Positions 25,430-60,715 are shown, counted from the first letter of the stretch. The stretch is 64,000 bases of DNA from an uncultured Gammaproteobacteria bacterium (GCA_964633995.1 CAZWKN010000002.1:113119-177118), one strand, 5' to 3'. Notes: generated from the sequence alone by a model not told the origin. Translations and numbers: made by a program.

Positions 25430-25430
25430 A

Positions 25431-30120: not shown

Positions 30121-30137
30121 AGCTCTATTATAGCTGG

Positions 30138-45077: not shown

Positions 45078-46436
45078 GTGAAAACAGTGTGGCCGGTTTT
45101 AGTAATTTTAGCTATTTTTCTTACTTACATACACCTAAACCAGAGTTTTGCCCCCTACCCCAGTGAATTTGGACCACTCTGGATGGGCAAGACGAGAATT
45201 CCGGGATTGGTAATTAGTTGTTTGGCACTAAGTGTATTTGGATTATGGCTTTCTCGAACCGAAAAAAAAGTCGCCGTGGTATCTACGATGTTTTTGGGTA
45301 CTAGTTTATGGTGGATGTTATCGTCTCTTTTTTATCCCCTAACCGGCCTGACTTTTTTGGCTATTTGTCTGGTGCTGCTATTTGAAAACAAAGGCCTAAG
45401 ATGGCTGCTTTTGGTGATATTGGCATTAAGTGGTTTGATGGGAACAATGTGGGGATTGGTATATTCAACTCATAAAAAAGATTGGTTATTACTGGTTATT
45501 GTGGTGTTGATTGGAAGCCGGGCCGTGCTTACAGATAATGCATGGGTTGCTGCGCAAACAACTATCCCCAAAATAGCTGAAGAGGTCAGGGTTAGGATGC
45601 AGGAAGAGTTTAAGGTGAATGGATATAACATGATATGGCCGTTTAGAGTAAAACTTCTGGGATATAATACGTACTATTTTGCTGTCCGAGAAGGATACAA
45701 GGAACTTGTTAAAGTAATGGATTTTGATTTTTTGACTAGTCCTGGTCAGCAAAGCGCTACAATTAGCAGAGGGCTATGGACCGCCAAAGGGCTACCTGTT
45801 GTTTACTTTTGGTTGGTTTTATTGGCGATATGGGGACTATTTAATCGCGAAACTGTTTCTGATCAACTTAAAAAAACTAGTTGGATCCTGCTTGTGTGGG
45901 GACTGTTGGCTGGGATGGTTAGCCCTGGTCCCAAATTGGTTCAGTCGGCGATCGGAGTGGCTGCGTTTGTAGCAATCTGGGCTGGAGTGGGATTTATTAA
46001 TCTTAGAAATATGGGGAAAATTGTAGTGGTTGTGATTGGTTCATTGGGAATAACTTTTGGAACATGGCATCTGTTGACACATGAACTGTATTGGAGAGAC
46101 AACCGTCCATGGGTGTTTGAACAAATGGCAAAATCTGCAGTTAAACATGGGGCAGGAAGACCTGTCGTGGCTTCTAGCCTATTGGGGGATCCGAGCTCTT
46201 ATTTCACATCGCAAGCCACATTTAGACATTTTGATCTGACGACCGAAAAACTGGATAAAGAAATTGTCTATATAGGTTTACCTGGAGAGTTCTTAGGTGA
46301 CCGGAGTAAAAAGGGAGATAATCATTTTGAAAGCTCGTGGCTACCATCAGAGATGAAACTGCTAGAAACGATTCCAATTCACGACACGGTTAGTTTTGGT
46401 AATGGAGACTCTATATGGGTAGTCGAAACAAAGTAA
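45078..46436 (+). CDS. Polytopic membrane protein with C-terminal soluble domain; unknown (GTG start)
   Basis: About 10 TM helices, then a ~110-aa hydrophilic tail. First gene of the plus-strand membrane-protein operon. Confidence 0.5.
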   Translation: MKTVWPVLVILAIFLTYIHLNQSFAPYPSEFGPLWMGKTRIPGLVISCLALSVFGLWLSRTEKKVAVVSTMFLGTSLWWMLSSLFYPLTGLTFLAICLVLLFENKGLRWLLLVILALSGLMGTMWGLVYSTHKKDWLLLVIVVLIGSRAVLTDNAWVAAQTTIPKIAEEVRVRMQEEFKVNGYNMIWPFRVKLLGYNTYYFAVREGYKELVKVMDFDFLTSPGQQSATISRGLWTAKGLPVVYFWLVLLAIWGLFNRETVSDQLKKTSWILLVWGLLAGMVSPGPKLVQSAIGVAAFVAIWAGVGFINLRNMGKIVVVVIGSLGITFGTWHLLTHELYWRDNRPWVFEQMAKSAVKHGAGRPVVASSLLGDPSSYFTSQATFRHFDLTTEKLDKEIVYIGLPGEFLGDRSKKGDNHFESSWLPSEMKLLETIPIHDTVSFGNGDSIWVVETK

Positions 46437-48013
46437 TTTTTTCCACTATTGCCTTGGCGGGCATCGTGATCATGGGTGGGTATTTGAGAATTACCAGAAT
46501 TTCCGAATCTCCTCCGAGTGTAAACTGGGACGAAGCGGCTCTTGGATACAATTCTCTTGCGCTTTTTAAGACCGGACGAGATGAGTTTGGAAAAAAGATG
46601 CCATTGTCACTGAGATCTTTTGACGATTACAAACCAGCACTGTATTCATATTTAACCACGGGGTTTGTGGCCGGATTAGGCTTAAATGAATTGTCCACCA
46701 GACTAACTTCGATTGCTTCCGGTTTGATGCTGATTGCGTTGATGTATTATCTAGCCACAAAATTGACCGGAAGGCCTGAAATAGGACTGACTGCGGGACT
46801 ACTTATAGCGACAAGCCCTTGGGCAGTGCATTTTTCCAGAATTGCTTTCGAGGCCAACCTGGCGTGCATGCTATATTTTGCTGGCATAGCTTGTTTTGTA
46901 GCTGGATTGACGAAACCAAAATACGGCTACATTTCGGTGTTTTTGATGGTGTTATCAATGTACGCCTATCACGCCCAAAGGGCGATTGCATTACCGACCC
47001 TTGTTTTACTAGGGCTTGTATTCAAGCCCAAAGTTAAAATTGGGTGGCTGCTTGTCGCAGTAGTAGGGCTATTGCCACTTGGGATATCTTCTTTAGTGGA
47101 TCCCATTGGGGCCAGGCTAACTGCGACTAATATATTCAGACTTTGGCCATTCGTACCCTTGGAATTTAATGCTGGCCTGATTGCGTCCGGATATAGTTTG
47201 GTGTGGATGGTAGTGGGCCATTATTTGGCTTATCTATCGCCGGTAAATTTATTCTGGCAAGGTTCCGTTGAGCCTATTTTGAGAATGCCCCATCTGGGAC
47301 TTTTTGTTACAGAAGCACTTCCGTTGTTTATTGCCGGCTGGATAGTTTTACCGAAACAAAAAGCGTTAGCAAAGTTAATTATTTGCTTGGCGGTGCTTAC
47401 TCCACTTCCCGGAGTTATAACTTGGAATTGGTTTTCGGTGGTTCGATCATTGGCTGTTTATCCAACCTGGACACTAGTAATGGCCACCGGGGCAGTATTG
47501 GGCTTTGAAAGTATCAGGGGCAAGTTGGCAAAAATCAGTGCTCTAACACTTACCGTTGTGGTCTTTGGAATTTCCTGTGTGTACTCCATGGCAAGTTTAA
47601 TTTTGTACTACCCCGTGGAAACATATGGAGATTTCCAGCCGGGGTTTGAAAAAAGCGCACCATATTTAGTGGGCCGTGAACCAAGTGTAAGAGAAATTGT
47701 TTTTGACAGTCCCCATATTGCACCGTATATTTTTGTTTTGTTTTACGGCAAGTACCCGCCCGGTAAATATTTCGTTGAAGCAGGGTTGGACAGAAAAAAC
47801 TCAGGAACAGAAGATTATGTTTTTGGTAAATGGCAGTTTAGGAAAATTGATCCTAAATTTGATTTTGAAAAACGAAATGTTATCTTGGTGGGCTCTGTAT
47901 TTAGTATTCCAGATTATAAAGTTGAAGAGCTAAAGCGGGATGGAAAGCTGATAAAGTTAACTGATTTTCCCGACGCTATGGGCTATACTAGCTTGAGGGC
48001 TATTGAGTTATGA
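46415..48013 (+). CDS. GT-C fold membrane glycosyltransferase, PMT/ArnT-like; paralog 6 of 6
   Basis: ESPPSVNWDEAALGYNSLALFKTGRDEFGKKMPL...SFDDYKPALYSY...RLTSIASGLM. Confidence 0.7.
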   Translation: MGSRNKVIFSTIALAGIVIMGGYLRITRISESPPSVNWDEAALGYNSLALFKTGRDEFGKKMPLSLRSFDDYKPALYSYLTTGFVAGLGLNELSTRLTSIASGLMLIALMYYLATKLTGRPEIGLTAGLLIATSPWAVHFSRIAFEANLACMLYFAGIACFVAGLTKPKYGYISVFLMVLSMYAYHAQRAIALPTLVLLGLVFKPKVKIGWLLVAVVGLLPLGISSLVDPIGARLTATNIFRLWPFVPLEFNAGLIASGYSLVWMVVGHYLAYLSPVNLFWQGSVEPILRMPHLGLFVTEALPLFIAGWIVLPKQKALAKLIICLAVLTPLPGVITWNWFSVVRSLAVYPTWTLVMATGAVLGFESIRGKLAKISALTLTVVVFGISCVYSMASLILYYPVETYGDFQPGFEKSAPYLVGREPSVREIVFDSPHIAPYIFVLFYGKYPPGKYFVEAGLDRKNSGTEDYVFGKWQFRKIDPKFDFEKRNVILVGSVFSIPDYKVEELKRDGKLIKLTDFPDAMGYTSLRAIEL

Positions 48014-49371
48014 AAAGGTTTTGGTGGATTGTCTTGGTGGTAGTGATAATGGTGGTCAGGCTTTACAGAATTGATACCCATTCACACTTTATGACAGACG
48101 AATCCTCCGATTTGGTCCGGATGCATCAAATCTATGTGGAAAGGATGATTACCCTGGTGGGCCCAATCTCAGAGGACAGGAGTCACGTTTTTAGCTCGCT
48201 AACATACTACATGCTCTTGCCATTTGCTGTGATGTTTAATTTTGATCCCTTAGGCCCGGTCGTCGGCATGGTGTTTTGGGGAAGCTTAACTGCGATTATG
48301 TTAGCGATGGCAATAAAAAAAATAAACCCGAATTTTACGTTTATTGGAGCTATTTTTGTCTCCTTGTGGTGGCCATTGGTGTTAGGTTCCAGATGGGCAT
48401 GGAATCCAAACCTGGTAGCGTTTTGGATTGTCCTGGGATGGCATTTTTGCCAAAAAAAGGTCAGCTGGATGCAACTTCTTGGTGGATTATTTATGGGCTT
48501 GGCCGTGCATCATCATTATCTAGCCATACTACCTATCGGGGTGTATTTATTAATAAATCGAAACGGCTTTTTTGCGGCTGGATTGGCAGCTGCCTGGTTG
48601 CCTTTTGTCGCATTTGACTTAAGACATCCACCGGGTCTATTTATCATGCGCAGCCTAAACTATTATTCTGGAACAAAACAAGGATTCGAACTGCACAAAT
48701 CAATCCTTATGGCGTGGTCGACTTTTTCCGAGTATTTCTTTCCTCAGATAAGCCAGGTTTTTGTGACGATAGGCATATCTGCGTTGGTTGGATGGGACAT
48801 ACTTCGGCATAAAGCCTACTTATTTGGACTGGCGAATTGGATTGTTGCCTTAGTGGGTTTAATTTTATTATCTTTCCAATTTCACTATGTGCTACCAGTT
48901 GCTGTTTTTTTTGTATTGTGGATTTTTGCAAAACGGAATGGATTTGGAAAGGTTGTACAACTAATCATTATAATTACGATAATTTGCGGGTCGATACTTA
49001 AATTTTCTAAGGAAATTTCCTCGTATTCGCTTTACGGAAATTTAAAGGAGACCAGGCAGATTGTTAAAATTATCAGTGACCAAATTACAACACAAAAACT
49101 TGTCAATCCAAATTTGGCAATTCTGGCTAGTGATGATATATATACCAACGGGAATAAATATCGGGACCTACTATTGGTTAATAACATCAGACTAAGAATG
49201 GCTTCTGAATACGAGATCTCTGATAATTTGTTTGTGGTAACCCAAAAGGATGAACAAACTATCAGAGATGATCCGGCAGCCGAAAGAGCGAAGTTTAGGC
49301 CAGGACCGTTATATGGCTACTGGCAAATTCCAAATTCCAGTTGGAGAGTTTATCAGTTTAATAAATATTGA
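48010..49371 (+). CDS. Polytopic membrane protein, GT-C-like candidate
   Basis: About 11 TM helices; early-loop acidic motif HFMTDESSD; C-terminal ~110-aa soluble domain. Confidence 0.45.
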   Translation: MKRFWWIVLVVVIMVVRLYRIDTHSHFMTDESSDLVRMHQIYVERMITLVGPISEDRSHVFSSLTYYMLLPFAVMFNFDPLGPVVGMVFWGSLTAIMLAMAIKKINPNFTFIGAIFVSLWWPLVLGSRWAWNPNLVAFWIVLGWHFCQKKVSWMQLLGGLFMGLAVHHHYLAILPIGVYLLINRNGFFAAGLAAAWLPFVAFDLRHPPGLFIMRSLNYYSGTKQGFELHKSILMAWSTFSEYFFPQISQVFVTIGISALVGWDILRHKAYLFGLANWIVALVGLILLSFQFHYVLPVAVFFVLWIFAKRNGFGKVVQLIIIITIICGSILKFSKEISSYSLYGNLKETRQIVKIISDQITTQKLVNPNLAILASDDIYTNGNKYRDLLLVNNIRLRMASEYEISDNLFVVTQKDEQTIRDDPAAERAKFRPGPLYGYWQIPNSSWRVYQFNKY

Positions 49372-50645
49372 TGAAAAAGTTTTTACTAATACTGGTGCTT
49401 GTATCGGGAATGTGGCTACGCTTGTGGTTGGCGCCGAAGGCGTTTCATGATGACATATACAGTAATGCCGGTTGGGGTACATGGATTTACCAACATGGCC
49501 CCAAGGGCTTTTATGAAAATAACGTCTGGGTCTATTCATGGCCAACCCAACCCCCACTTATTAGTTACATATATGGTTGGAATAAATCATTTTATGTCGA
49601 ACTGCTGGGGAGAATTGCTTGGATAAATCATCAGGTGCAAAAAATTTATTACGTTAGTTGGCTGGACAACTTCGTACAATGGTTTGCTTTTGGAATCGTA
49701 AATATTGAAATTCCGTTTCAGATAGGCTATTTGATTACCATGAAACTTTTGCCAATTTTTGCCGATGTAGGCATTGCGCTGCTAATGTATAAATTGTCGA
49801 ATAGATTGTTTTGGCCAACGGTGTATTTATTTTTTCCGTTTAGCTGGTATTTGTCTGCTTTGTGGGGCCAGTATGACCAGGTGAGTTCATTGATATTGTT
49901 TTTAGCATTTTTGGCCGTAACAAAAAAGAAAATTGTTTGGCTATCACCTATTCTTGCCGCCATTTCGATTTTGCTTAAGCCCACCGGACTCGTGCTCATG
50001 CCCCTTTTGGCAGGAATGTACATCTGGAAATGCAAATATTGGAAGCAACTGATTTTTGGCGGGTTGTTGGGGTTGTGCGTGTTTACTAAATCCACCAGCT
50101 TGTTTGCCGATCGAGGCGAGTTTGCGTATTGGCACCACACGCTTATTCGGATGGTCTTTTTCAAGTCGGAATTTAGAGTGTCGACAAATGCATTTAACGC
50201 ATGGCGCATATTAATTGGCAATAAGGCAGTGAATCAGGATGCCAAATTTTTGAGCCTTCCTGCCAAATGGTGGGGCTATGGAGTGATGGCCATTTCACTG
50301 ATAATAGTATTTAAAAAATACAGGAAGTGGACTGACCGAGAAATCACTGAATCCGTATTCCTGATATCAGGCTCTGCCTGGATGTTTATGACCGGAATGC
50401 TGGATAGGTATGTGTTTATGGCCATCTTCACCGGATTGGTTGCTTGTATGTACAATCAAAAATTACTTAGCTACTGGGTTGTATTGGCGTTAATTTTTTC
50501 GATCAACCTGTATCACGGTTGGTGGTTTCCAAATGGCTTTGTATTAAAACAAATTTTGGAATGGAATAATGGAGTAATTACGCAGGGTTTATCTTTGGTT
50601 AATGTGTTGGTGTATATTAAGATGGCAAAATTGATTGTGGCATGA
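49368..50645 (+). CDS. Polytopic membrane protein, GT-C-like (DUF2029/GT87-like)
   Basis: FPFSWYLSALWGQYDQVSSLILFLAFLAV...ILLKP. Confidence 0.55.
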   Translation: MMKKFLLILVLVSGMWLRLWLAPKAFHDDIYSNAGWGTWIYQHGPKGFYENNVWVYSWPTQPPLISYIYGWNKSFYVELLGRIAWINHQVQKIYYVSWLDNFVQWFAFGIVNIEIPFQIGYLITMKLLPIFADVGIALLMYKLSNRLFWPTVYLFFPFSWYLSALWGQYDQVSSLILFLAFLAVTKKKIVWLSPILAAISILLKPTGLVLMPLLAGMYIWKCKYWKQLIFGGLLGLCVFTKSTSLFADRGEFAYWHHTLIRMVFFKSEFRVSTNAFNAWRILIGNKAVNQDAKFLSLPAKWWGYGVMAISLIIVFKKYRKWTDREITESVFLISGSAWMFMTGMLDRYVFMAIFTGLVACMYNQKLLSYWVVLALIFSINLYHGWWFPNGFVLKQILEWNNGVITQGLSLVNVLVYIKMAKLIVA

Positions 50646-52309
50646 AAAACATAATTATTCTGGTACTATTCGCGGTCTTGACGTTCCCTGCTTACAAGGC
50701 CTTACGACATCCAGGACTTATATATGGACATGATTCTGAATCGGTGTTATTTCGGTCAATTGAGTTCCGCCAGGCGATAGCTGACGGCAATTTTCCAGTT
50801 AGGTGGTCAAAAAGATTGGACTATGGGTTGGGACAACCAACATTTACGTTTACGTACAATTTGCCATATTATTTATCGTTTGGGCTGGGGCTAGTGGGCC
50901 TTTCGGAGCTCTGGTCATTTAAACTAATTTATGCGCTTAGTTTCCCATTAAGCGCATTTTTTGCGTACTTGTGGCTTAGAAAGCACGTGGGGACAAAGGC
51001 AGCATTGCTGGGAGGACTTTTTTATACTTACTCACCATATCATTTTGCAAACGTGTATGTCAGAGCGGCATTTGGAGAAATCGTAGCTGCCACCGTGGCG
51101 CCTTTGGTTTTTTATGGAGTATTTTTACTGGCTACAAAAACTGACCTTCGGAATATTGCCAAATGCGGGTTGCTGGTGGCATTGATGGCATTAAGTCATA
51201 ATTTCTACTTAATTATCCTCTTGCCCATATTGACTGGTTATTATTTTGTAGTTGCCCGCAATTTCAGAATTTGGACTGTAATTGCCTGGGGCCTAGTGGT
51301 GACATTGGGAATTGGTTTGGCAAGCTATTATTTAATCCCGGCATTTGTATATAAGGATCTGACTTTCTTAACAGATATGGCCAGGTGGTTTTCGGAAAAT
51401 AATAATTTTATTACCGCCAAGGATTTGCTTGCGTCTTCTTGGGGATTTGGGGGTTTAAGACGAGACGGAGGCGACGGGTTGTTATCCATTCAAATTGGAT
51501 TAGTACATCTGGCCTTGGCAACAGGCAGTTTGATACTAATATTAAAAAACCGACTGGCTTCGGGGCAAAAAAAAGTAACTTTGTTTTTTTTGATAGTGCT
51601 ATGTGGAATTGTATTTTTGATGCATAAGGAAAGTACCTTTGTCTGGGACATGCTTCCCATCCTCAAAAACCTTCAATTCCCATGGAGGTTAATGTTTGTA
51701 GTAAATCTGGTAGTGGCATTTTGCATAGGGCTATTTTTTGATCGAAATTTGAAAACGGTGATAGTTTTTACTTTAATTATCGGCTTAATCGGTGTAAGTA
51801 GTAGATATTGGCATGTACATCGATATTTTCCATGGATTGATCCCACCCCCAAAACCATTGGCTACCCCGGGACTTTGACTATGCTCTTTGAAGAGACACC
51901 AAGATGGCATGAGATCCGCCAGGAACCAAATCCGCACTTTTTGGCACAAGTGAGTTCAGGTGAGGCAGATACGTCTGAGTTGGCGTGGAAGACAAATTAC
52001 CAAGCAGTGAGCGTTGATTGTAAACACGATTGTGTAATTGCTTTCAAAACACATTTTTGGCCGGGGTGGAAAGTATACGTAGATTCAAAAGAGACAGCAT
52101 TAATAGACCCTTATGATGAGCTTAGTCAGGGGTTATTGAGTTTGAAAGTGCCGAACGGAAAACACATAGTGGAGGCGAAACTTTCTGAACCTTTATTGGG
52201 AAAAATTGGCGACACGGTTACGATATTTTTTGGACTTATTACAACTATTCTTTTTGTGGCACCTTCCAAATTTCCGTTTCTGAATCGGAATAAACTTTGG
52301 ATAAGTTAA
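50642..52309 (+). CDS. 'PTPS-related/YfhO-like' polytopic membrane protein with C-terminal beta-rich domain; paralog B of 3
   Basis: RHPGLIYGHDSESVLFRSIEFRQAIADGNFPVRWSKRLDYGLGQPTFTFTYNLPYY. Confidence 0.45.
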   Translation: MKNIIILVLFAVLTFPAYKALRHPGLIYGHDSESVLFRSIEFRQAIADGNFPVRWSKRLDYGLGQPTFTFTYNLPYYLSFGLGLVGLSELWSFKLIYALSFPLSAFFAYLWLRKHVGTKAALLGGLFYTYSPYHFANVYVRAAFGEIVAATVAPLVFYGVFLLATKTDLRNIAKCGLLVALMALSHNFYLIILLPILTGYYFVVARNFRIWTVIAWGLVVTLGIGLASYYLIPAFVYKDLTFLTDMARWFSENNNFITAKDLLASSWGFGGLRRDGGDGLLSIQIGLVHLALATGSLILILKNRLASGQKKVTLFFLIVLCGIVFLMHKESTFVWDMLPILKNLQFPWRLMFVVNLVVAFCIGLFFDRNLKTVIVFTLIIGLIGVSSRYWHVHRYFPWIDPTPKTIGYPGTLTMLFEETPRWHEIRQEPNPHFLAQVSSGEADTSELAWKTNYQAVSVDCKHDCVIAFKTHFWPGWKVYVDSKETALIDPYDELSQGLLSLKVPNGKHIVEAKLSEPLLGKIGDTVTIFFGLITTILFVAPSKFPFLNRNKLWIS

Positions 52310-53855
52310 ATTGCGCTAGGTTTATGGCCACAGGCATCAGTTTGGGAATGTAAACGTAAGAGATGTGGTTGGTAGTCAGAAAGTTATTAACCTGATTGGG
52401 ATATGTGCCTGAAAAGAAATCTACGATCTGGAGATGGCGTGATTTCCAGTCGTAGCCAGTTATATTTAAGTTTACTTCATCGGCTAAATATGTTTGTTGT
52501 CCAGAATAAGCGGAAATATAGCCAGTAGATTCATATAAATAAAGTGGCCTGGGAGGAGAATGTTCAAACTTGCTACTTAAGCTCTTGTCAAACACTGGTG
52601 TAAGTACAACACCTTGAGGAAGTCTGCCAAGAAAAGTTAGGGCGGACAACTCCTGTGACGAAATTTTCGCCGGCGGTCTTTTCGGTAGGTAGTGCCTTAA
52701 AGTGCCAAGCGTAGTGGGAATAGTTAACAATACAATCATTAGACATAAGAGTTTATTTGGCCGCAAACTTGCAAATGATATTCCGGCCAACAAACCAAGT
52801 GCAAATTGTGAATAATAAAAAAACTGGATAGTATTCCAGGCTGTGCCGGACTGGGTAAACAACATTGGAATAAACAGGCCAACAACTACAACTGTGATCA
52901 AAAAAATTTGTAGTGCATCCAGTTTTTTTGGGGCCTTAACTAACCCTATTAACCGTGTTCCAAAATTACCCAAGGTAAAAATTAACAAGGCAAGTGAAAA
53001 GGCAGGAATGCCTTTTAGGAGATTAGTGCTAATTCTGTAAGTGTTCAGAGCCGAAAAAAACTTAGGACTATTTAACCGATCGGGGCCCATCATGGTTTCT
53101 AAAAACCAAAGCGGCTGAAAGTGCAGTAGTTTTACTGAAGATGAATTCAATGGCATAAATAATCCGAGTGAAATTATCACTGACGGCAGTAATACTTTGA
53201 GCCATTTTTTATTTTTTAGGCTGCCTAATGCCAACCCGGCAAAACTTAATAGGCCGATGTATATTTTGATTTCCGGTAAAATTGAAAACACTAAAATAGC
53301 CGATAGAAAGCGATTTTTGTGCAATAGTATAAGTCCTAATAATAATAGAGCTAGTGAGAATGCGTAGGGGGGGTTTATGAGTGTAGAGATAGATTGTTGG
53401 GCCCAAAAAACAGACTCCCCTGCCCCCATGACCCATCCAAGGCTTCCTCCAAAATAAACAAAAAATAATGTCCATAAGGCTGCCAACTTCGACTTTTGCC
53501 AACTAAGTATGAAAAAGTAGGCAAGTAATCCGATTAAGGCAGATATTAAAACTGGAAAGATTTGAAAGTATAAGATGGTAACCGGAAGCTTGGTTATAAG
53601 GTGGATGAATGTCACCAATAAATCAAATCCCAGATGGTAATTTTTTATGGCTTCTCCTGCAAATATTGGCATGTCCAAAGAGCCCCTAGAAAGACTCTGG
53701 ATAAGCGATATGTGCCAAATACCGTCGTGCCCATTTGGACCCCAAAAACCCAAGCCATACGAGTAGGTTAGGCCATTTTTAACCATGGTCACCAGCCATG
53801 TTATGGAACCGATAAGGATGACTAGCCAGTGTTTATTTTTTTTGACGAAAGGCAT
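52245..53855 (-). CDS. Polytopic membrane protein (536 aa) directly downstream of the Wzx flippase; possible polymerase/ligase-like or GT-C enzyme
   Basis: About 12 TM helices with a ~130-aa C-terminal soluble domain. No family motif recognised; the context call comes from adjacency to wzx. Confidence 0.4.
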   Translation of the reverse strand: MPFVKKNKHWLVILIGSITWLVTMVKNGLTYSYGLGFWGPNGHDGIWHISLIQSLSRGSLDMPIFAGEAIKNYHLGFDLLVTFIHLITKLPVTILYFQIFPVLISALIGLLAYFFILSWQKSKLAALWTLFFVYFGGSLGWVMGAGESVFWAQQSISTLINPPYAFSLALLLLGLILLHKNRFLSAILVFSILPEIKIYIGLLSFAGLALGSLKNKKWLKVLLPSVIISLGLFMPLNSSSVKLLHFQPLWFLETMMGPDRLNSPKFFSALNTYRISTNLLKGIPAFSLALLIFTLGNFGTRLIGLVKAPKKLDALQIFLITVVVVGLFIPMLFTQSGTAWNTIQFFYYSQFALGLLAGISFASLRPNKLLCLMIVLLTIPTTLGTLRHYLPKRPPAKISSQELSALTFLGRLPQGVVLTPVFDKSLSSKFEHSPPRPLYLYESTGYISAYSGQQTYLADEVNLNITGYDWKSRHLQIVDFFSGTYPNQVNNFLTTNHISYVYIPKLMPVAINLAQFNLSKVYSDSETEIWKVPQKE

Positions 53856-55311
53856 GTGACATTTTTGTTAAGTCAATTAACAATTGAGGTCCTGTTAAGC
53901 CGTATAGCGCAGCCAAAAAGACCACGCCAGAAATTAACACGTTGAGAATTAAGGTCGGCCAGGAAGACGGCAGGATAGTTTTTAAACCTATGGTTATCAA
54001 AAGCATTGCGACAGTGGCAAGTAAAGGCTTGAGGATACTTTGGGAAAATTGAAACCCAGTAATTTTTTGAACAATTACGATAGGAATAATTGAAAATACT
54101 GAAATAATCGCGGTGGCATACGCCACTCCCAAATAGCCAAATTTGTGGGCCAAAACCGGAGTTAGTCCCCAGGCTAAGGCTAACCACATAAGCATCAATG
54201 CGGTGTTTATCTTTACTTTGCCGAGGGAATTTAACGTATTTGAAAGTGGAGTTGAGATACTTGCCCAGGCAGTGTTAATGCAAAACAAGGTTAGGGGAAA
54301 CAACGCATCCTGCCATTTTGAATATTTGGGAATCAGGCGAACCACTTCCGGAGCCAGTATCGCCAATCCTGCTGTAAAAGGAAAAGTTGCAGCGGAAATA
54401 AAAAATAGGGTTTTTTCAAGACTTTTTTTCAGATCATTCGGATGGTTTTGCATACGAGAAAACGTAGGAAAAGTGACTTTGGTAACATTGTCCATAACTA
54501 GTCTTAAGGGCTGTTCTGAATAGTTTCTGGCCCAACTAATGATTCCCACTCCCTCGGTGCCAATAATTTTCCAGACAACTAATTCTATAAACCTATCCTT
54601 GACTACGGCTATAAACGTATTGAGTTGGTATGGCAAACCGAACTTTAACAAATTGTTTAGCGACGATTTTGAGAGCGAAAAGCCAATTGGCCAGGGCGAA
54701 AGAAAATAGATCAGAGCGGTGCCAACGATCCCCCGTAACATCACTGCCCAGGCATAGGCATATATTCCATCGCCCCTCCAGGCAAAAAAGACTGCTACAA
54801 ACCAATAAACGATATTTTCTACCACTTCTACCGCAGCTAAGTTTTTAAATAGCAGATGTCTTTCCAAAATTACAGAGGGGATTGTCTTGAGAGAAGCCAG
54901 AAAAAAAGCAAGCAGTAAGCTATTGAATAAGAAAACACCACCAGCTGGAAACTGGTAATACCGGGCGAGACCGGGAGCCAGAAGAAACATGACTATACAT
55001 CCGGAAATAACTAATATCTGCTGAAGGGTGAAGGTTGTCCGGAGATCTGATACCGTAGGACTGTCTTTTTTTTGAACCAGTGATGCCGCCAAGCCAACGT
55101 CTGAGAAATAACCCAATATTATTACCAGATTGTTAATTGCGGCAAATAGTCCGAATTCGTACCTTTTAAGATAAAAGGACAGAAGAGAAATGCCAATTAG
55201 ACTGATAACGCGGATAACAAATGTCCGACTGATTAAAGTGACTATGCCGGAGAGGGTTCTGGATTTGACGGTGAGTAGATCTATTTCTCCAGCGACCGGT
55301 TCGGAGTCCAT
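53833..55311 (-). CDS. wzx: Wzx-type oligosaccharide flippase (MOP superfamily polysaccharide biosynthesis protein)
   Basis: 492 aa with about 14 TM helices; N-terminus RTLSGIVTLISRTFVIRVISLIGISLL...GLFAA...GYFSDVGLAASLVQKKD, typical of PF01943/PF13440 flippases. Confidence 0.8.
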   Translation of the reverse strand: MDSEPVAGEIDLLTVKSRTLSGIVTLISRTFVIRVISLIGISLLSFYLKRYEFGLFAAINNLVIILGYFSDVGLAASLVQKKDSPTVSDLRTTFTLQQILVISGCIVMFLLAPGLARYYQFPAGGVFLFNSLLLAFFLASLKTIPSVILERHLLFKNLAAVEVVENIVYWFVAVFFAWRGDGIYAYAWAVMLRGIVGTALIYFLSPWPIGFSLSKSSLNNLLKFGLPYQLNTFIAVVKDRFIELVVWKIIGTEGVGIISWARNYSEQPLRLVMDNVTKVTFPTFSRMQNHPNDLKKSLEKTLFFISAATFPFTAGLAILAPEVVRLIPKYSKWQDALFPLTLFCINTAWASISTPLSNTLNSLGKVKINTALMLMWLALAWGLTPVLAHKFGYLGVAYATAIISVFSIIPIVIVQKITGFQFSQSILKPLLATVAMLLITIGLKTILPSSWPTLILNVLISGVVFLAALYGLTGPQLLIDLTKMSHAFRQKK

Positions 55312-55326
55312 GCAGTTATTCTATCA

Positions 55327-56619
55327 TCAATAGCGATAGTGATCAGCCTTAAAGGGCCCGTTTTTGGAGACGCCAAGATATTCCGCCTGATCGGGGGTTA
55401 ACCTGGTCAATTTTCCCCCTAATTGACCAATGTGGAGCATTGCCACTTTTTCATCCAAATATTTAGGCAGCCTGTATACACCCACTTCGTACTTTTTTGT
55501 GAAAAGCTCTATCTGGGCCAAAACCTGATTGGTAAACGAATTGGACATGACGAAGGACGGATGGCCCGTAGCACAGCCGAGGTTGACTAACCTGCCTTCT
55601 GCCAAAAGGATAATGCGATGGCCATCTGGAAACGTATATTGATCAACTTGTGGTTTAATCTGTTCTTTTTTGATCTTTGGGAAATCGTTTAAGGCTTTGA
55701 CCTGAATTTCCACGTCGAAGTGACCAATGTTGCATACGATTGCGGTGTCTTTCATGTGTTTCATATGTTCGAGCGTGATAATGTCTTTACATCCCGTTGC
55801 AGTAACAAAAATATCCGCTCTTTTTACAGCTTCGGCCATTGTGACAACCTCATAGCCCTCCATTAAAGCTTGAAGTGCACAAATCGGATCGATCTCAGCG
55901 ACAAGAACCCTACAACCAAATCCCCTAAGCGACTGTGCACTACCTTTGCCAACATCTCCAAAACCATTAACCACTGCCACTTTTCCGGCCAACATGATAT
56001 CCGTTGCCCGTTTAATGCCGTCTGCAAGAGATTCGCGACAACCATAGAGGTTGTCAAATTTTGATTTGGTGACACTGTCATTGACGTTAATTGCAGGAAT
56101 TTTAAGTTCACCTTTAGAGTGCCGCTGATAGAGATGATGAACCCCGGTAGTGGTTTCTTCTGACACTCCTCTAATATCTTTTAATAACTCTGGATGTTTT
56201 TCGTGTACCCAGCCAGTCAGGTCTCCACCGTCATCCAATAGTAAGTTTGGACCGCGGCCTTTTGAGAACTTAAGTGTCTGATCAGTGCACCACCAATAGT
56301 CTTTCTCGGACTCGCCTTTCCAAGCAAAGACCGGCGTGTTGGCTGCTGCAATCGCGGCAGCGGCGTGATCTTGAGTAGAAAAAATATTACACGATGCCCA
56401 TCTAACGTCCGCACCCAACGCCTGAAGAGTTTCGATTAGCACGGCCGTTTGAATAGTCATGTGCAGTGAACCGGAAATTCTAGCATTTTTGAGAGGTTTT
56501 GATTTTGAATATTCGCGCCTAAGACTCATTAGGCCCGGCATTTCATTTTCGGCAAGTTTAATTTCCATCCGACCCCAACGAGCTAAGGAGAGATCTTTGA
56601 CTTTGTAGTCTTTGGTCAT
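55327..56619 (-). CDS. ahcY: Adenosylhomocysteinase (S-adenosyl-L-homocysteine hydrolase)
   Basis: [28 protein letters not shown]...[40 protein letters not shown]..., the canonical AHCY NAD-binding and substrate motifs; 430 aa. Confidence 0.95.
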
Positions 56620-57560
56620 GAGAGCTTTAGTTCTTGGTGATAATTTTCAAAATAACGGGAAACATACTGTGAAATAGAATATTCGTGAGTCATGGTACCA
56701 TATTTTTCTACAGTGTAAACAGCGGAAACCGATCCCATCTGGCCGCAAGTTTGCAAATCAAAGCCCCGAATAAGCCCTGCGACAAAACCCCCCCTAAAAG
56801 CATCTCCTGCTCCGGTGGGGTCCAAAGAATTTTCTGGGGATGCGGGGGCTATTTCAAAACGGGCAGACGGTGTTTCAATAATGGAACCTTTTTGGCCAAG
56901 TGTGGTAATCAAAATTGGAACTGATTTAACAAGTGCTGAATGGGAAACGGAAAGCTTTTTTTCGATAAGTGATATTTCGTAATCATTGCCTATTAAAATA
57001 TAGGCCCCGGAGGCTAAATCTTTGAGATCCTTTTTGGTAAACGCGTCTATTTGGAAAGCTGGATCAAATAAATATGGTATTTTTTTGTCTTGACATTCTA
57101 GTCCATATTTTTTCATTGCCTCCGGGCTAGTCGGAGCGAGAATGGCAAGTTCGGGACGGGGGTTGATAGTATTTATGGACAAGTCGTTAGCATATTTGGT
57201 AGCACCGGCATAAAACGACCCTATTTGATTGTCGTCCTGGTCTGTAACTACAAAGTAAGAGCCCGTAGTAACGTCCGGAAATGTTTGAATGTAAACTGTG
57301 GAGATCTTTCGATTTTCCAGAAATTTAAGATATGGTGCAAAGTCGTTACCAGCCGGAGCAACAATATATGGATTGACGCCCAAGAGTTTCAAATTGTATG
57401 CAATATTGCCTGCAGTACCCCCCAATTGCTTTTCCAACTTATTGACCAAAAAACTTAGGGAAATTTTGTGTATCTTATCCGGCATGATCCTATCCGCAAA
57501 GCGGCCAGGAAAATCCATGATGTAGTCAAACCCCAACGTACCCGTTACAACCACACACAT
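56616..57560 (-). CDS. PfkB-family carbohydrate/nucleoside kinase, most likely adenosine kinase
   Basis: [12 protein letters not shown]-terminal motif and [18 protein letters not shown]-terminal PfkB signature. Start and stop overlap ahcY (ATGA), which suggests an SAH-to-adenosine-to-AMP couple. Confidence 0.8.
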
Positions 57561-57569
57561 ATCAAAAGA

Positions 57570-59204
57570 TTATATACGTTTAACTAAAAAATACACCAGA
57601 CACAAAACAGCCCCAAGTGAAACTAAGTTACTTAAAATCCGAATAGGTGTGTCGGTAAACCTGGCCACCAGATCGTGACTGCCCGGGGAAACTGTTAACT
57701 GCATACGACCAAGCAATTTGTCCGAAGTGTGATCAACTGTAACCTCTTTTCCATCTAACCATATTTTCCAACCGGGAAAATAAAACGTCTGAAGTTCGAT
57801 AGTGGTGGGTAGTGAATCAATGTTGACTCGATAATGTTGAAGATTGGACTTTTTGGAGATTCTAGTAAAGCTCCCTTGTCCAAAAATGTTTATGTCATCC
57901 CCTGCCTGATCAGGCGGAGGCAGTTTGGCTGATATGGGCAAATAATCGAAAATACTGGCAGTAATTAGAGCTTGCCAGGATTTGCCTGAAAACTTTTCTT
58001 GGTCAGTCATGGTGGGAAACCACTTGTCTGGATGGAAATAATTGGCGTTTAATAAGAGGAGAAGAGTTAAAGAGCAGGAGAGTATAAGTTTATTTTTTGT
58101 AAGTAAGGCAAAAGCTCCCGCAAGAAACGAAGCAGAAAAAGCTGCCAGAGTCATAAATCTCCAAGGAAATTGTAGGTATTGAATAGGCGGAATTAGTTTC
58201 CAAATAAATGTTGATTTCGAGTGGGCCATGAACAAGCTACCAAGAACACACATGGCAAGAAACAAGATCGTAAACTTGTGATCCTTGAGTTGTTTTACAA
58301 ACGGCAAAGAAACTAAGACAATAGTTGGGACAATCCAATGCAGAAAGCCTAAGGCGAAACTCATGCCATCTTTTGGCCCCAACAGAGATGGGCCATAGCC
58401 CCAGTTAATGTTAAAAAATAGTTGATTTAGATCCGCAAAGTGGGCTAGGTAGTTGAAATAGCCAACAACAATAGACTCGACGTGAGCAAACTTGGCTTCT
58501 AATAAAACTGGGATAGTAAAAAATGCGGCCAGGCATAGCGCTAAGACCGCAGAGAACGCTAAAGACACATATGTCGTAAAGCTGGACCTAAACCTTATAA
58601 GCCAAAACAGACACCAAATAATTAAAACCGGAGCAAAAATCATAAGCATGGGATTGTGAGACAGCATTAAACACGCGACCGACACTCCAACCCCCACAAT
58701 CCAATACCTCACCCCAGTTTTTATTAAACGATAGGTGGTCCAGAAGATAAGCGGGTAAAAGGCCATGGCCCAAAACTCGTTCATCGCCCCTCTGACATAA
58801 AAATCGACAGAATGATACGGAGCGTAGGTATAAAAGGCTGCTGAGATTAGTCCTCCGGTTCTACCCCAAAACTCTTTGCCCAATAAATACATATTTATTG
58901 CGCAGATGCCAAACCCCAATATCCCAACTAGTTTTACAATGTCGATATATTGTAGATTTAACAATCTGAATGGCTGACCAATTAGATAAGGCAAGGGAGG
59001 GTAATAATTAAACAGAGGATACCCGTACCCATAGCCCATATCCGGAACCCAACGGCAAGGAATTTGGTAGTCCTTAAAGCATTTGTCCAGTTGATATTGG
59101 CGCATTGATTGTAAGTCGTCGTGCATGGTGAAATATCCTGGTTGCATCAACCAGGATATTGCCGGTAAAATTAAAAGTAGGAGCCAAAAAAAATCTTTTT
59201 TCAT
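57570..59204 (-). CDS. 'PTPS-related/YfhO-like' polytopic membrane protein; paralog C of 3
   Basis: GYFTMHDDLQSMRQYQLDKCFKDYQIPCRWVPDMGYGYGYPLFNYYPPLPY. Confidence 0.45.
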   Translation of the reverse strand: MKKDFFWLLLLILPAISWLMQPGYFTMHDDLQSMRQYQLDKCFKDYQIPCRWVPDMGYGYGYPLFNYYPPLPYLIGQPFRLLNLQYIDIVKLVGILGFGICAINMYLLGKEFWGRTGGLISAAFYTYAPYHSVDFYVRGAMNEFWAMAFYPLIFWTTYRLIKTGVRYWIVGVGVSVACLMLSHNPMLMIFAPVLIIWCLFWLIRFRSSFTTYVSLAFSAVLALCLAAFFTIPVLLEAKFAHVESIVVGYFNYLAHFADLNQLFFNINWGYGPSLLGPKDGMSFALGFLHWIVPTIVLVSLPFVKQLKDHKFTILFLAMCVLGSLFMAHSKSTFIWKLIPPIQYLQFPWRFMTLAAFSASFLAGAFALLTKNKLILSCSLTLLLLLNANYFHPDKWFPTMTDQEKFSGKSWQALITASIFDYLPISAKLPPPDQAGDDINIFGQGSFTRISKKSNLQHYRVNIDSLPTTIELQTFYFPGWKIWLDGKEVTVDHTSDKLLGRMQLTVSPGSHDLVARFTDTPIRILSNLVSLGAVLCLVYFLVKRI

Positions 59205-60715
59205 TTGCCTGTGTTTAACTGGAAAAATAACAGATATTCTCTTTGGCCGATGGGAGACGTAGCTTTGGGATAACTTCCCAAGAGTTTGAGACCTAGGCTT
59301 TGGGGATCGGGAATGAAAAACCGGGTGGAATTTACAACGACAAACACCTGATTATCCTTTTGGGCGGTAATAAGTTTTTGGTCTATTGACGAAATTGAAG
59401 TCCCTATGCCGATTACCCGAACATTGGGCACGTCGTTTAAATATAATTGAAGAGCATTGAATGGGGTTCCAAAAAAACCCTCAGACCCTATAAGGACCGG
59501 GCCGGATTTTGCAAAGTTTCTCAACGAGTCGGCAACTTCTTTTAGTCCATATCCCGAGGTCCAGCCTTCCAAATACCCTTCCCGCTCTATTCTGGGCAAG
59601 GCCACAGAAGCAGGCTTTGAGATTAGTAGATAATCTATCCATATTGATGGCAGAATAAGCAAAAGGACCCCCACAAACACCAGTAAATGTTTCTGCGTTC
59701 TCTGACCTAGATGTTCCAATCCATGACTAATTAAAACGACAGCAAAGGGAACGGTGAAAAATATATACCTGGCGGTAAACGCTTTGGCAATCAACGACTG
59801 AGCAATGATTGGACACAGAAGCCAGAGTGAAGTTACACACCTGCTTTTCCAGTGAGAAAATCTGCCGCCCAACATTCCCCAGAAAAGAAACAACAGTCCG
59901 ACCGGTGTTACTAAATAAAAATAGAATTCGATGGAATCCTTAAGATGGGGAATCAGGGGATCCGATGGGTGTTTGAGTATATCCGAAAAACTAAAGACAT
60001 AATCTGCGTTGCGAAGTGCAATCATATGAAACTCTGGTCCAAGTCTTAGGATGTTGTACATACCAAAAGAAATGGTGAATGTCGCAAGAAACAAGAGACA
60101 AGAAACAAGAAAATTTTTCCAAGTTAATTTTGGCAAAAATATCAGAAGTGACGGTAAGAGGATAAGTGCAAACAATGCGGGCGATTTAGTAAGCCAAGCA
60201 AATCCAAAAGCGAAACCAGCTAGCATTGCGAAATCGAGACGCAGTTTACTAAACGAAATGTACATCAAATCAAAACCCCAAACCATGAACATGGCCAATA
60301 AACTATCTGCTAGTGCTAAACGGTTGAAAAAAACAGCAAACGGGATAACTGCCCACAATACGGAAGCCAGAAGTGTTAGCCGAGAATTTTTAAAAAGCAT
60401 TTGGGCCATGAGAGCGATACCCAATAGCGTGCCAATGCCAGACAAAGCCGAAAATGTTCTGGCGGCAACTAGCGGATCTGAAATTAATTTCAGAAACGGA
60501 ATAGTGGCCCACATGTACAACGGTTGTTTGCCGTCAGAGAGCGGCAAAAACCTGAGGGACGGCTCGACTCGCATGACTTGCGACCAGCGAATATAAATAG
60601 ATTCATCGGCAAAAATGGGGAAGGAGCCCAAGTTTGCAAACCTTAGTACTGTTGCCAACAGCAGGATTAAAAATCCAATAGTTAATACTTTTAAACTAGG
60701 TTTCATAAAACTCAA
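59201..60715 (-). CDS. GT-C fold membrane glycosyltransferase, ArnT/PMT-like (GT83/GT39-type)
   Basis: LGSFPIFADESIYIRWSQVM first-loop acidic motif; about 12 TM helices. Confidence 0.65.
   Translation of the reverse strand: MSFMKPSLKVLTIGFLILLLATVLRFANLGSFPIFADESIYIRWSQVMRVEPSLRFLPLSDGKQPLYMWATIPFLKLISDPLVAARTFSALSGIGTLLGIALMAQMLFKNSRLTLLASVLWAVIPFAVFFNRLALADSLLAMFMVWGFDLMYISFSKLRLDFAMLAGFAFGFAWLTKSPALFALILLPSLLIFLPKLTWKNFLVSCLLFLATFTISFGMYNILRLGPEFHMIALRNADYVFSFSDILKHPSDPLIPHLKDSIEFYFYLVTPVGLLFLFWGMLGGRFSHWKSRCVTSLWLLCPIIAQSLIAKAFTARYIFFTVPFAVVLISHGLEHLGQRTQKHLLVFVGVLLLILPSIWIDYLLISKPASVALPRIEREGYLEGWTSGYGLKEVADSLRNFAKSGPVLIGSEGFFGTPFNALQLYLNDVPNVRVIGIGTSISSIDQKLITAQKDNQVFVVVNSTRFFIPDPQSLGLKLLGSYPKATSPIGQREYLLFFQLNTGK

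What the first reader, a model, noticed from the sequence alone, without database searches (positions are those of the whole stretch)
52245..55311. Wzx flippase with an adjacent large membrane protein: a Wzx/Wzy-type branch coexisting with the lipid-P-monosaccharide/GT-C branch
A clear MOP-family flippase (53833..55311) overlaps the start of a 536-aa, ~12-TM protein with a periplasmic C-domain (52245..53855). That second protein could be a Wzy-like polymerase or ligase. The locus would then combine cytoplasmic assembly of a lipid-linked oligosaccharide (GT2/GT4 enzymes), flipping, and extensive periplasmic modification by GT-C enzymes. That two-stage logic resembles eukaryotic or archaeal glycosylation more than typical bacterial O-antigen synthesis.
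Basis: inference. Interest (0 to 1): 0.55.

Follow-up and report, generated by a model that had tools for sequence, protein, structure and literature searches.

The report
Wzx flippase coupled to OST-like transferase
The flippase gene is real, but its overlapping partner is not a Wzy polymerase: it belongs to an unnamed family of membrane glycosyltransferases from Microgenomates (candidate-phyla-radiation) bacteria, is built like an archaeal or eukaryotic oligosaccharyltransferase, and probably passes on the sugar chain that the flippase carries across the membrane.

Summary
Both ORFs exist as described: a MOP/Wzx flippase (53833..55311, -) whose last 23 nt overlap the start of a 536-aa membrane protein (52245..53855, -; "X536").

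The family has at least 1,520 clusters and occurs in 447 species genomes. All informatively named genomes are Microgenomates/Patescibacteria.

In 78 of 83 loci (80 related genomes) the Wzx gene lies upstream on the same strand, usually overlapping X536 by 4-44 nt. Three soluble GT2s and a GT4 follow. Some relatives are fused to a DUF3863 hydrolase/deacetylase-like domain, and one is also fused to Wzx.

Best reading: Wzx flips a lipid-linked glycan built by the cassette GTs, and X536 transfers it at the outer face. This resembles the lactococcal WpsG/WpsJ system or an OST. Whether the donor is an oligosaccharide or a single sugar, and what the acceptor is, remain untested. No priming phosphoglycosyl transferase was found nearby. 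I class it as a new variant of a known kind, of moderate interest.

The parts
53833..55311 (-). Wzx-type MOP flippase, 492 aa
   Evidence: Pfam Polysacc_synt_3 E 2.9e-49 and Polysacc_synt E 9.5e-19. NCBIfam MOP flippase E 7e-46, O-glycosylation flippase E 8e-33, TuaB E 3e-31, all below their equivalog cutoffs. No MurJ hit. At least 10 hydrophobic segments.
52245..53855 (-). X536: 536-aa member of an unnamed GT-C glycosyltransferase family with OST-like architecture
52689..53855 (-). X536 membrane domain (residues 1-389), about 11 TM, N-terminus in. All family-invariant polar residues sit on outward-facing loops.
   Evidence: AF2 helices and hydropathy. Short K/R-rich inner loops read from the sequence: KKNK, QKSK, HKNR, KNKKWLK, KAPKK, RPNK. 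Residues invariant or at least 90% conserved across 109 and 62 diverse relatives: D44, H48, N72-Y73-H74, E147, W151, N161, K197, P248, W250, N297, Q335, N341, Q344. D259 is 93% conserved in the 109-member set only.
53724..53726 (-). Codon for D44 (motif G-H-D-G-I-W-H), the proposed catalytic/metal-binding Asp of external loop 1
   Evidence: 100% conserved in 109 representatives. Translation checked. It sits 19 residues after TM1, as does PglB D56 in N-D-G-Y (PglB sequence). The assignment rests on position and was not checked by superposition.
52248..52688 (-). X536 C-terminal extracytoplasmic alpha/beta domain (residues 390-536), similar to the AglB C-terminal core but lacking WWDYG
53833..53855 (-). 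23-nt overlap between the Wzx stop and the X536 start (translational coupling); contains an A8 run
   Evidence: In 64 of 78 loci the overlap is 4-86 nt, with modes at 38 and 41 nt.
44133..45035 (-). Cassette GT2 number 1, soluble. It follows X536 directly in relatives.
   Evidence: Pfam GT2. No TM. Homologue at +1.7 kb on the same strand in 81 of 83 loci, 51% identity.
43237..44136 (-). Cassette GT2 number 2, soluble
   Evidence: Pfam GT2. Found in 73 of 83 loci at +2.6 kb.
42507..43286 (-). Cassette GT2 number 3, soluble
   Evidence: Pfam GT2. Found in 81 of 83 loci at +3.55 kb.
41494..42525 (-). Cassette GT4, soluble
   Evidence: Pfam Glycos_transf_1. Found in 71 of 83 loci at +4.3 kb.
45078..52309 (+). 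Five opposite-strand polytopic membrane-protein genes that split X536 from its usual GT2 neighbours. This is a lineage-specific insertion.
   Evidence: In relatives the GT2 follows X536 directly. Homologues of 45078..46436 and 48010..49371 occur in only 3-4 loci. 50642..52309 hits PTPS_related.
19305..21113 (-). Secreted or anchored 602-aa protein: a DUF3863-like (beta/alpha) barrel plus the same C-terminal domain as X536. In about 29% of family representatives this domain is fused to the N-terminus of X536.
57570..60715 (-). Two GT-C genes (PTPS_related, then PMT_2) that lie just upstream of Wzx in relatives
   Evidence: Pfam. Found in 66 and 55 of 83 loci at -3.7 and -5.5 kb.
61617..63187 (-). 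Two GT2s that resemble polyprenol-phosphate sugar synthases. They are candidate donor-makers or primers.
   Evidence: NCBIfam PgfS E 5e-22 and 1e-18; ArnC-type E 2e-16 and 6e-14; dolichyl-phosphate hexose transferase E 4e-12 and 7e-11. All are below cutoffs. Conserved at about -7.1 kb in about 53 loci.
55327..57560 (-). S-adenosylhomocysteine hydrolase and a PfkB kinase, inserted between Wzx and the upstream GT-C genes
   Evidence: Pfam AdoHcyase E 3e-135 and PfkB E 3e-37. No homologue within 10 kb either side in the related loci.

Best explanation
The pair forms the export-and-transfer core of a surface-glycan pathway conserved in Microgenomates.

Proposed sequence of events:
1. Soluble GT2, GT2, GT2 and GT4 enzymes build a glycan on a polyprenol phosphate carrier at the inner face of the membrane. 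This step is inferred.
2. The Wzx-type MOP flippase moves it to the outer face. The family assignment is shown; the substrate is inferred.
3. X536, made by translational coupling from the same mRNA, transfers the glycan from the lipid to an acceptor at the outer face. The acceptor could be a protein, a wall polymer or a growing chain.

X536 is an 11-TM GT-C enzyme with OST-like architecture. The invariant external-loop residues D44, N72-Y73-H74 and E147 (D259 is also highly conserved) would form the catalytic and phosphate/metal site. Its AglB-like C-terminal domain would hold the acceptor.

X536 is not a Wzy/WaaL-type enzyme. I favour transfer of the whole oligosaccharide, as by lactococcal WpsJ or an OST, but have not shown it.
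For: Fold:
- The AF2 model is confident (pLDDT 86.8, pTM 0.89).
- Foldseek independently ranks STT3, AglB, DPY19 and PglB first.

Coupling to Wzx:
- Wzx is upstream on the same strand in 78 of 83 loci. Four of the five exceptions are cut off by a contig end.
- In 64 loci the stop and start overlap by 4-86 nt.
- The coupling also holds in a distant lineage where X536 carries a DUF3863 domain (14-nt overlap).
- A triple fusion Wzx-DUF3863-X536 exists.

Cassette:
- Soluble GT2/GT2/GT2/GT4 genes follow directly in 71-81 of 83 loci.
- These GT2s do not resemble polyprenol-P monosaccharide synthases over their full length.
- The GT2s that do resemble them, and in L086 a GT2-GtrA fusion, sit elsewhere. 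This suggests the monosaccharide branch has its own machinery.

Topology and conservation:
- All invariant polar residues map to outward loops.
- Extra TM segments in the fusions fit N-in/C-out.

Precedent: the L. lactis Wps model has GT2 priming on C55-P, soluble GTs, the Wzx WpsG and the GT-C WpsJ transferring the whole chain (PMC9574508).
Against: - There is no biochemical evidence, and neither donor nor acceptor has been identified.
- A Wzx plus GT-C pair can also move a single sugar (GacK/GacL in Group A Streptococcus; AglR/AglS in Haloferax, from my own knowledge).
- DPY19, a monosaccharide transferase, scores as well as the OSTs in Foldseek. OST-like shape therefore does not prove an oligosaccharide donor.
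- The WWDYG motif that defines OST acceptor binding is absent.
- The C-domain also occurs on a non-GT protein, so it may be a general binding or docking module.
- The roles assigned to D44, E147 and D259 rest on position only. I could not superpose coordinates.
- No priming enzyme was identified.
Confidence: 0.6

Rival explanations
1. Monosaccharide side-chain system of the GacI/J/K/L or AglR/AglS type. Here Wzx flips a polyprenol-P-monosaccharide, and X536 adds that single sugar to a glycan that is assembled and exported by other means.
For: Wzx-family flippases paired with GT-C enzymes do exactly this in streptococci. The locus holds about 20 other GT-C-like proteins, DPM1/ArnC/PgfS-like GT2s, and no GtrA-type flippase in the window. 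This Wzx could therefore serve the monosaccharide branch. DPY19 is a top Foldseek match.
Against: The genes welded to Wzx-X536 are three soluble GT2s and a GT4. These do not look like polyprenol-P sugar synthases. The synthase-like GT2s lie 7 kb away, next to other GT-C genes. In L086 a GT2-GtrA fusion coexists with the Wzx-X536 pair. X536 is far more conserved (about 50% identity, apparently one copy per locus) than the variable GT-C paralogues.
Confidence: 0.25
2. X536 is a polymerase that does the job of Wzy on a GT-C(A) scaffold, as proposed for lactococcal WpsI. It would join flipped lipid-linked repeat units into a polymer.
For: The pathway has a flippase but no recognisable Wzy. GT-C-fold polymerases that use C55-P-oligosaccharide donors have been proposed. 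Fusion to a DUF3863 hydrolase/deacetylase-like extracytoplasmic domain is more typical of polysaccharide processing than of protein glycosylation.
Against: No Wzz/PCP-type chain-length regulator, LCP ligase or export component was found in the window or in 82 related loci. The architecture with an AglB-like acceptor domain resembles transferases more than known polymerases. Several small polytopic proteins without Pfam hits remain unassigned and could be the polymerase instead: 21926..23041, 32172..33320 and 40325..41497.
Confidence: 0.12
3. X536 is a Wzy/WaaL-family polymerase or ligase.
For: It is a large polytopic membrane protein next to a Wzx gene. Wzy proteins are known for escaping HMM detection.
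Confidence: 0.03

Closest known systems
Archaeal AglB / eukaryotic STT3 / bacterial PglB oligosaccharyltransferases
   Different: There is no sequence-level similarity: no PF02516 hit and hhalign probability below 1%. WWDYG is replaced by a poorly conserved 'xPFD'. X536 has about 11 rather than 13 TM and is only 536 aa. No sequon-binding motifs are recognisable, and the same C-domain is found on a non-GT protein. The acceptor is therefore probably not an N-X-S/T sequon.
Lactococcus lactis Wps pathway (WpsA/B, WpsC-F, Wzx WpsG, GT-C WpsJ and WpsI), as reviewed in PMC9574508
   Same: The logic is the same. No phosphoglycosyl transferase is needed because a GT2 primes on polyprenol monophosphate. 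Soluble GTs extend the chain, a Wzx flips the lipid-linked oligosaccharide, and a GT-C enzyme transfers or polymerises it outside. All of these gene types are present here, and no PGT was found.
   Different: X536 shows no detectable sequence relationship to any described GT-C family. No GacJ/WpsB-like activator or rhamnan/ABC-transporter branch was identified. The organism is a Microgenomates bacterium with a reduced genome. The Wps model itself is largely genetic.
Group A Streptococcus GacI/GacJ/GacK/GacL (a four-component glycosylation system)
   Same: A Wzx-family flippase is genetically paired with a GT-C transferase that acts outside the membrane.
   Different: That system moves one GlcNAc made by a membrane-associated GT2. 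Here the tightly linked GTs are four soluble enzymes, and X536 has an extra OST-like C-domain.
Wzx/Wzy-dependent O-antigen or capsule pathway
   Same: A Wzx flippase sits next to cytosolic GT2/GT4 enzymes that build a lipid-linked unit.
   Different: No Wzy_C/WaaL-fold protein, Wzz, LCP or initiating WbaP/WecA-type enzyme was found in the window or in relatives' flanks.

Membership tests
Wzy / WaaL / O-antigen polymerase-ligase (PF04932, PF14296) | Sequence match to the Wzy_C or O-antigen polymerase HMMs | tested here: not met
   X536 has no Pfam hit at E<=0.1. None of 62 diverse family members hits these models at E<=1.
Wzy / WaaL / O-antigen polymerase-ligase (PF04932, PF14296) | WaaL/SEDS-type membrane fold | tested here: not met
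   [not shown]
MOP flippase, Wzx type (for 53833..55311) | Polysacc_synt / Polysacc_synt_3 domain above the Pfam gathering score | tested here: met
   PF13440 168.3 bits (cutoff 23) and PF01943 68.3 bits (cutoff 28.2).
MOP flippase, Wzx type (for 53833..55311) | Match to a specific characterised equivalog (WzxE-like PRK10459, O-glycosylation Wzx, TuaB) | tested here: not met
   Scores of 157, 114 and 109 bits against cutoffs of 273, 720 and 580. It is a family member, but its substrate class is undetermined.
MOP flippase, Wzx type (for 53833..55311) | Not the lipid II flippase MurJ | tested here: met
   The window protein has no PF03023 hit at E<=0.1. One orthologue carries a precomputed MurJ hit alongside stronger Polysacc_synt hits.
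GT-C superfamily (class A) glycosyltransferase | Polytopic membrane domain with the GT-C fold | tested here: met
   [not shown]
GT-C superfamily (class A) glycosyltransferase | Conserved acidic residue in the first extracytoplasmic loop after TM1 | tested here: met
   D44 is 100% conserved in 109 and in 62 relatives. It lies on the outward loop under the N-in topology. The catalytic role is inferred.
GT-C superfamily (class A) glycosyltransferase | Uses a polyprenol-phosphate-linked donor | not testable with these tools
   This needs biochemistry.
STT3 / AglB / PglB oligosaccharyltransferase (PF02516) | Sequence match to the STT3 family | tested here: not met
   No Pfam hit. PDB profile searches gave no OST hit. 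hhalign against PglB gave probability 0.4%.
STT3 / AglB / PglB oligosaccharyltransferase (PF02516) | Closest structural neighbours are OST catalytic subunits | tested here: met
   [not shown]
STT3 / AglB / PglB oligosaccharyltransferase (PF02516) | C-terminal extracytoplasmic core (CC) domain | tested here: met
   [not shown]
STT3 / AglB / PglB oligosaccharyltransferase (PF02516) | WWDYG motif at the start of the C-terminal domain | tested here: not met
   The C-domain sequence has no WWD. The corresponding strand reads GVVLTPVFD. The position is variable in the family.
STT3 / AglB / PglB oligosaccharyltransferase (PF02516) | 13 transmembrane helices | tested here: inconclusive
   About 11 TM by helices, hydropathy and the positive-inside rule. 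The model coordinates could not be inspected.
Multi-component transmembrane glycosylation system (Gac/Wps type) | Wzx-family flippase genetically linked to a GT-C transferase | tested here: met
   78 of 83 loci, mostly with overlapping genes; fusions also exist.
Multi-component transmembrane glycosylation system (Gac/Wps type) | GacI/WpsA-like GT2 that makes polyprenol-P-sugar, with a GacJ/WpsB-like activator | tested here: inconclusive
   The GT2s at 61617..63187 resemble PgfS, ArnC and DPM-type enzymes, but below cutoffs. No small activator was identified.
Multi-component transmembrane glycosylation system (Gac/Wps type) | No initiating phosphoglycosyl transferase in the locus | tested here: met
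   No Bac_transf or MraY/WecA-type hit among the window ORFs of 150 aa or more, or in any gene cluster found in five or more of the 82 related loci; one 4-locus cluster (about 335 aa, +5.3 kb) and rarer ones were not scanned. The rest of the genome could not be examined.

The most novel reading that the evidence does not exclude
X536 could be a true bacterial offshoot of the STT3/AglB lineage. It would be a Microgenomates-wide oligosaccharyltransferase that has swapped the WWDYG sequon-binding site for a different acceptor site. It would then transfer whole glycans onto surface proteins such as S-layer proteins or pilins, or onto the wall, working as a physically coupled and sometimes fused flippase-modifier-transferase assembly line. 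That would be a new class of oligosaccharyltransferase and a general glycosylation system in candidate-phyla-radiation bacteria, possibly linked by descent or gene transfer to the archaeal pathway.
Probability: 0.2. Interest if true: 0.8.

Novelty: new variant of a known kind. Interest (0 to 1): 0.55.

Why it matters
Candidate-phyla-radiation bacteria depend on cell-surface contact with hosts, yet how they build their envelope glycans is largely uncharted.

This analysis gives a fold, a topology, candidate catalytic residues and a pathway position to a large protein family: at least 1,520 clusters at 50% identity, present in 447 species genomes. Pfam, NCBIfam and the source annotations currently leave it blank.

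The analysis also identifies a compact conserved cassette: Wzx, the OST-like GT-C enzyme, three GT2s and a GT4. Natural fusions tie three activities together: flipping, a DUF3863 hydrolase/deacetylase-like step, and transfer.

If the enzyme transfers whole oligosaccharides, it widens the known range of oligosaccharyltransferase-like enzymes beyond the WWDYG-bearing family. It would also offer a small, single-subunit scaffold for glycoengineering.

If it adds only single sugars, it is one more, unusually conserved, member of the three- or four-component glycosylation systems.

Tried and rejected
**X536 against known families and structures**
- Pfam and NCBIfam scans of X536 found nothing relevant.
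- Sequence and profile searches of the PDB with X536, A1 and A5 returned only noise: HIV Vif and triose-phosphate isomerase.
- A Pfam scan of 62 diverse family members returned only scattered chance hits.
- hhalign of the family against PglB was not significant. I use the alignment it printed only as a positional hint.
- hhalign against the window's own GT-C paralogues gave a marginal link to PMT_2 (probability 51% with A1, 9% with A5) and none to PTPS_related.
- BLASTP of the two C-domains found nothing; only profile-profile comparison showed the homology.

**Tools and look-ups that failed**
- Foldseek against AFDB50 was unavailable.
- Exact-sequence look-ups to extend the window failed or gave only a 3.9-kb contig. 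The flanking genome could therefore not be searched for a priming enzyme.

**Searches for other pathway components**
- I looked for a GtrA-type small flippase or other small ORFs in the window and found none.
- I looked for Wzy candidates among the small polytopic proteins without Pfam hits, using relaxed Pfam thresholds, and found nothing.

**Literature**
- Searches on CPR/Patescibacteria/Woesebacteria with oligosaccharyltransferase, STT3, GT-C, glycosylation and DUF3863 found nothing on this family.

**Ideas rejected**
- That the flippase is MurJ: rejected because it has no PF03023 hit.
- That the fused N-terminal half of the 1,000-1,160-aa relatives is the flippase: rejected because it is a DUF3863-like domain.
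Full report
**1. Observation**

Both ORFs exist exactly as described.
- 53833..55311 (-) encodes a 492-aa protein. It scores well above the gathering thresholds for Pfam Polysacc_synt_3 (E 2.9e-49) and Polysacc_synt.
- It also resembles NCBIfam MOP-flippase models (WzxE-like, O-glycosylation Wzx, TuaB), but below their equivalog cutoffs. It is therefore a Wzx-type MOP flippase of undetermined substrate. It shows no MurJ signal.
- 52245..53855 (-) encodes a 536-aa protein, which I call X536. Its ATG lies 23 nt upstream of the end of the flippase stop codon, inside an A8 run.
- The window is one very large glycan locus. It holds many GT2 and GT4 genes, SAM methyltransferases, a carbamoyltransferase and roughly twenty polytopic GT-C-like proteins.

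**2. What X536 is not**

- X536 has no Pfam or NCBIfam match, and therefore no Wzy_C or O-antigen-polymerase match.
- It has no PDB relative by sequence or by profile.
- None of 62 diverse family members hits any Pfam GT-C, STT3 or Wzy model.

**3. What X536 is**

- It belongs to a large, well-conserved family. The 5.8-billion-protein set holds more than 1,300 homologues, all unnamed or 'hypothetical'.
- The exhaustive library holds 1,520 representative clusters.
- 447 species-representative genomes carry it. All informatively named ones are Microgenomates (Woese-, Ames- and Blackburnbacteria) or 'Patescibacteria group'; one is labelled Clostridia and many TPA MAGs carry an implausible 'uncultured Gammaproteobacteria' label.
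- An AlphaFold2 model built on 32 homologues is confident (pLDDT 86.8, pTM 0.89).
- Foldseek, an independent method, ranks mammalian STT3, AglB, the OST-like C-mannosyltransferase DPY19 and PglB first.
- No WaaL, RodA or FtsW chain appears in either list.
- At profile level X536 is only marginally related to the PMT_2 paralogues in the same window, and not at all to the PTPS_related ones. It is a distinct GT-C family, visible only by fold.

**4. Anatomy**

- Helices, hydropathy and six short K/R-rich loops (KKNK, QKSK, HKNR, KNKKWLK, KAPKK, RPNK) give 11 TM. The N-terminus is inside, and the C-terminal domain of about 145 aa is outside.
- Residues invariant or at least 90% conserved across about 110 representatives all fall on outward loops or helix ends. 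They are H43-D44 and H48 (GHDGxWH, external loop 1), N72-Y73-H74-x-x-x-D78, E147/W151/N161-P-P (loop 2), K197, P248/W250/D259 (the long loop 4) and Q335/N341/Q344.
- D44 sits where GT-C enzymes carry their catalytic Asp. PglB has N-D56-G-Y at the equivalent place (sequence).
- These functional assignments rest on position. I could not superpose coordinates.
- The OST hallmark WWDYG is absent. The strand that would carry it reads GVVLTPVFD and varies across the family.

**5. Genomic coupling**

- Across 83 loci (80 related genomes), a Wzx homologue (median 43% identity) lies upstream on the same strand in 78. Four of the five exceptions are truncated by a contig end.
- In 64 loci the Wzx stop overlaps the X536 start by 4-86 nt, with modes at 38 and 41 nt.
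- Directly downstream come a GT2 (81 of 83 loci), a second GT2 (73), a third GT2 (81) and a GT4 (71). In this window they are 44133..45035, 43237..44136, 42507..43286 and 41494..42525, and all four lack TM segments.
- Here the cassette is split in two places. Five opposite-strand membrane-protein genes (45078..52309) separate X536 from the GT2s. An AdoHcy hydrolase and a PfkB kinase (55327..57560) separate Wzx from its usual upstream GT-C neighbours.

**6. Fusions**

- About 29% of full-length representatives carry an N-terminal extension of 400-650 aa.
- This extension is not the flippase. It consists of a signal peptide, a soluble domain and three extra TM segments.
- Its stand-alone homologue is in this window at 19305..21113 (36-43% identity).
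- One protein, P0167, fuses Wzx, DUF3863 and X536 in a single 1,639-aa chain.
- In a lineage with the DUF3863-X536 fusion, Wzx still overlaps its start by 14 nt. A separate GT2-GtrA fusion is also present there.

**7. Priming enzyme**

- No Bac_transf or MraY/WecA-type protein, Wzy_C, Wzz or LCP was found among the window ORFs of 150 aa or more, or in any gene cluster present in five or more of the 82 related loci within 10 kb either side; one 4-locus cluster and rarer ones were not scanned.
- The rest of the genome could not be reached.
- Two GT2s at 61617..63187 resemble polyprenol-phosphate sugar synthases of the PgfS, ArnC and DPM types, though below cutoffs.

**8. Mechanism**

The best-supported reading has three steps:
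1. The soluble cassette GTs assemble a glycan on a polyprenol phosphate.
2. Wzx flips it.
3. X536 transfers it at the outer face, and its C-domain engages the acceptor.

What is shown:
- the family of the flippase;
- the fold, topology and conservation of X536;
- the gene coupling and the fusions.

What is inferred:
- the donor;
- whole-chain transfer;
- the catalytic residues;
- the acceptor.

The closest described logic is the lactococcal Wps model. In it, a GT2 primes on C55-P, soluble GTs extend, the Wzx WpsG flips, and the GT-C WpsJ transfers the whole chain while the GT-C WpsI polymerises. The single-sugar version of that logic is streptococcal GacI/J/K/L (PMC9574508).

The main rival is that single-sugar mode, because Wzx plus GT-C pairs and OST-shaped enzymes such as DPY19 can both handle monosaccharide donors. 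A GT-C-type polymerase role is a further rival.

**9. Novelty and verdict**

- I found no description of this family in the searchable literature.
- It is a new GT-C family of OST-like architecture used in a known type of pathway, so I class it as a new variant of a known kind.
The 'Wzy-like' label is wrong, but the two-stage picture that resembles archaeal glycosylation is reasonable.
- Interest is moderate at 0.55. It would rise sharply if X536 proves to be a WWDYG-less oligosaccharyltransferase.

Noticed in passing
[not shown]
   Followed up: partly
window 53833..53855 (-): The overlap between Wzx and X536 contains an A8 run (CGTCAAAAAAAATAAAC), and the X536 frame is +1 relative to Wzx. The same frame relation (overlap length of 2 mod 3) holds in most related loci, and natural Wzx-containing fusions exist. 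Whether frameshifting ever yields a fused product was not examined.
   Followed up: no
window 55327..57560 (-): S-adenosylhomocysteine hydrolase (Pfam E 3e-135) and a PfkB-family kinase sit between Wzx and the upstream GT-C genes. They are absent from this position in related loci. This is plausibly SAH/adenosine salvage serving the many SAM methyltransferases of the locus (607..2631, 3650..4336, 8564..9358, 14458..15297).
   Followed up: partly
window 23816..31751 (-), also 12348..13727, 34494..36098, 59201..60715: There is a tandem array of five PMT_2 / PTPS_related GT-C paralogues of about 520-537 aa, plus further copies elsewhere. In total about 20 polytopic GT-C-like proteins lie in 64 kb, yet there is only one recognisable flippase and no GtrA-type protein in the window. 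How the polyprenol-P-sugar donors for all these enzymes cross the membrane is unexplained.
   Followed up: partly
window 21926..23041, 32172..33320, 33310..34497, 40325..41497, 45078..46436, 48010..49371: Six polytopic membrane proteins of 370-450 aa with no significant Pfam hit even at relaxed thresholds (33310..34497 gave only a PMT_2 match at E 0.83). Any of them could be a cryptic Wzy-like polymerase or a further new GT-C family. 40325..41497 follows the cassette GT4 in about 19 related loci at 47% identity.
   Followed up: partly
window 37780..39465 (-): A NodU/CmcH-type carbamoyltransferase (Carbam_trans_N and Carbam_trans_C, E 1e-60) lies inside the glycan locus. This implies O-carbamoylated sugars.
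   Followed up: no
window 52245..52309: The 3' ends of the convergent genes 50642..52309 (+) and X536 (-) overlap by 65 nt. This is unusually long for convergent genes and leaves no room for a terminator between them.
   Followed up: no
loci L004-L007, L014, L041 and others: Many TPA MAG records that carry this Microgenomates-type cassette are titled 'uncultured Gammaproteobacteria bacterium'. One is a complete 0.81-Mb chromosome (OZ246419.1). The label looks like a placeholder or an error in the records.
   Followed up: no
window 63133..63999 (-): This ORF runs off the window end. Its relatives form a PMT_2-like family of about 500 aa, present in two copies about 8 kb upstream of X536 in 61 related loci.
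   Followed up: partly
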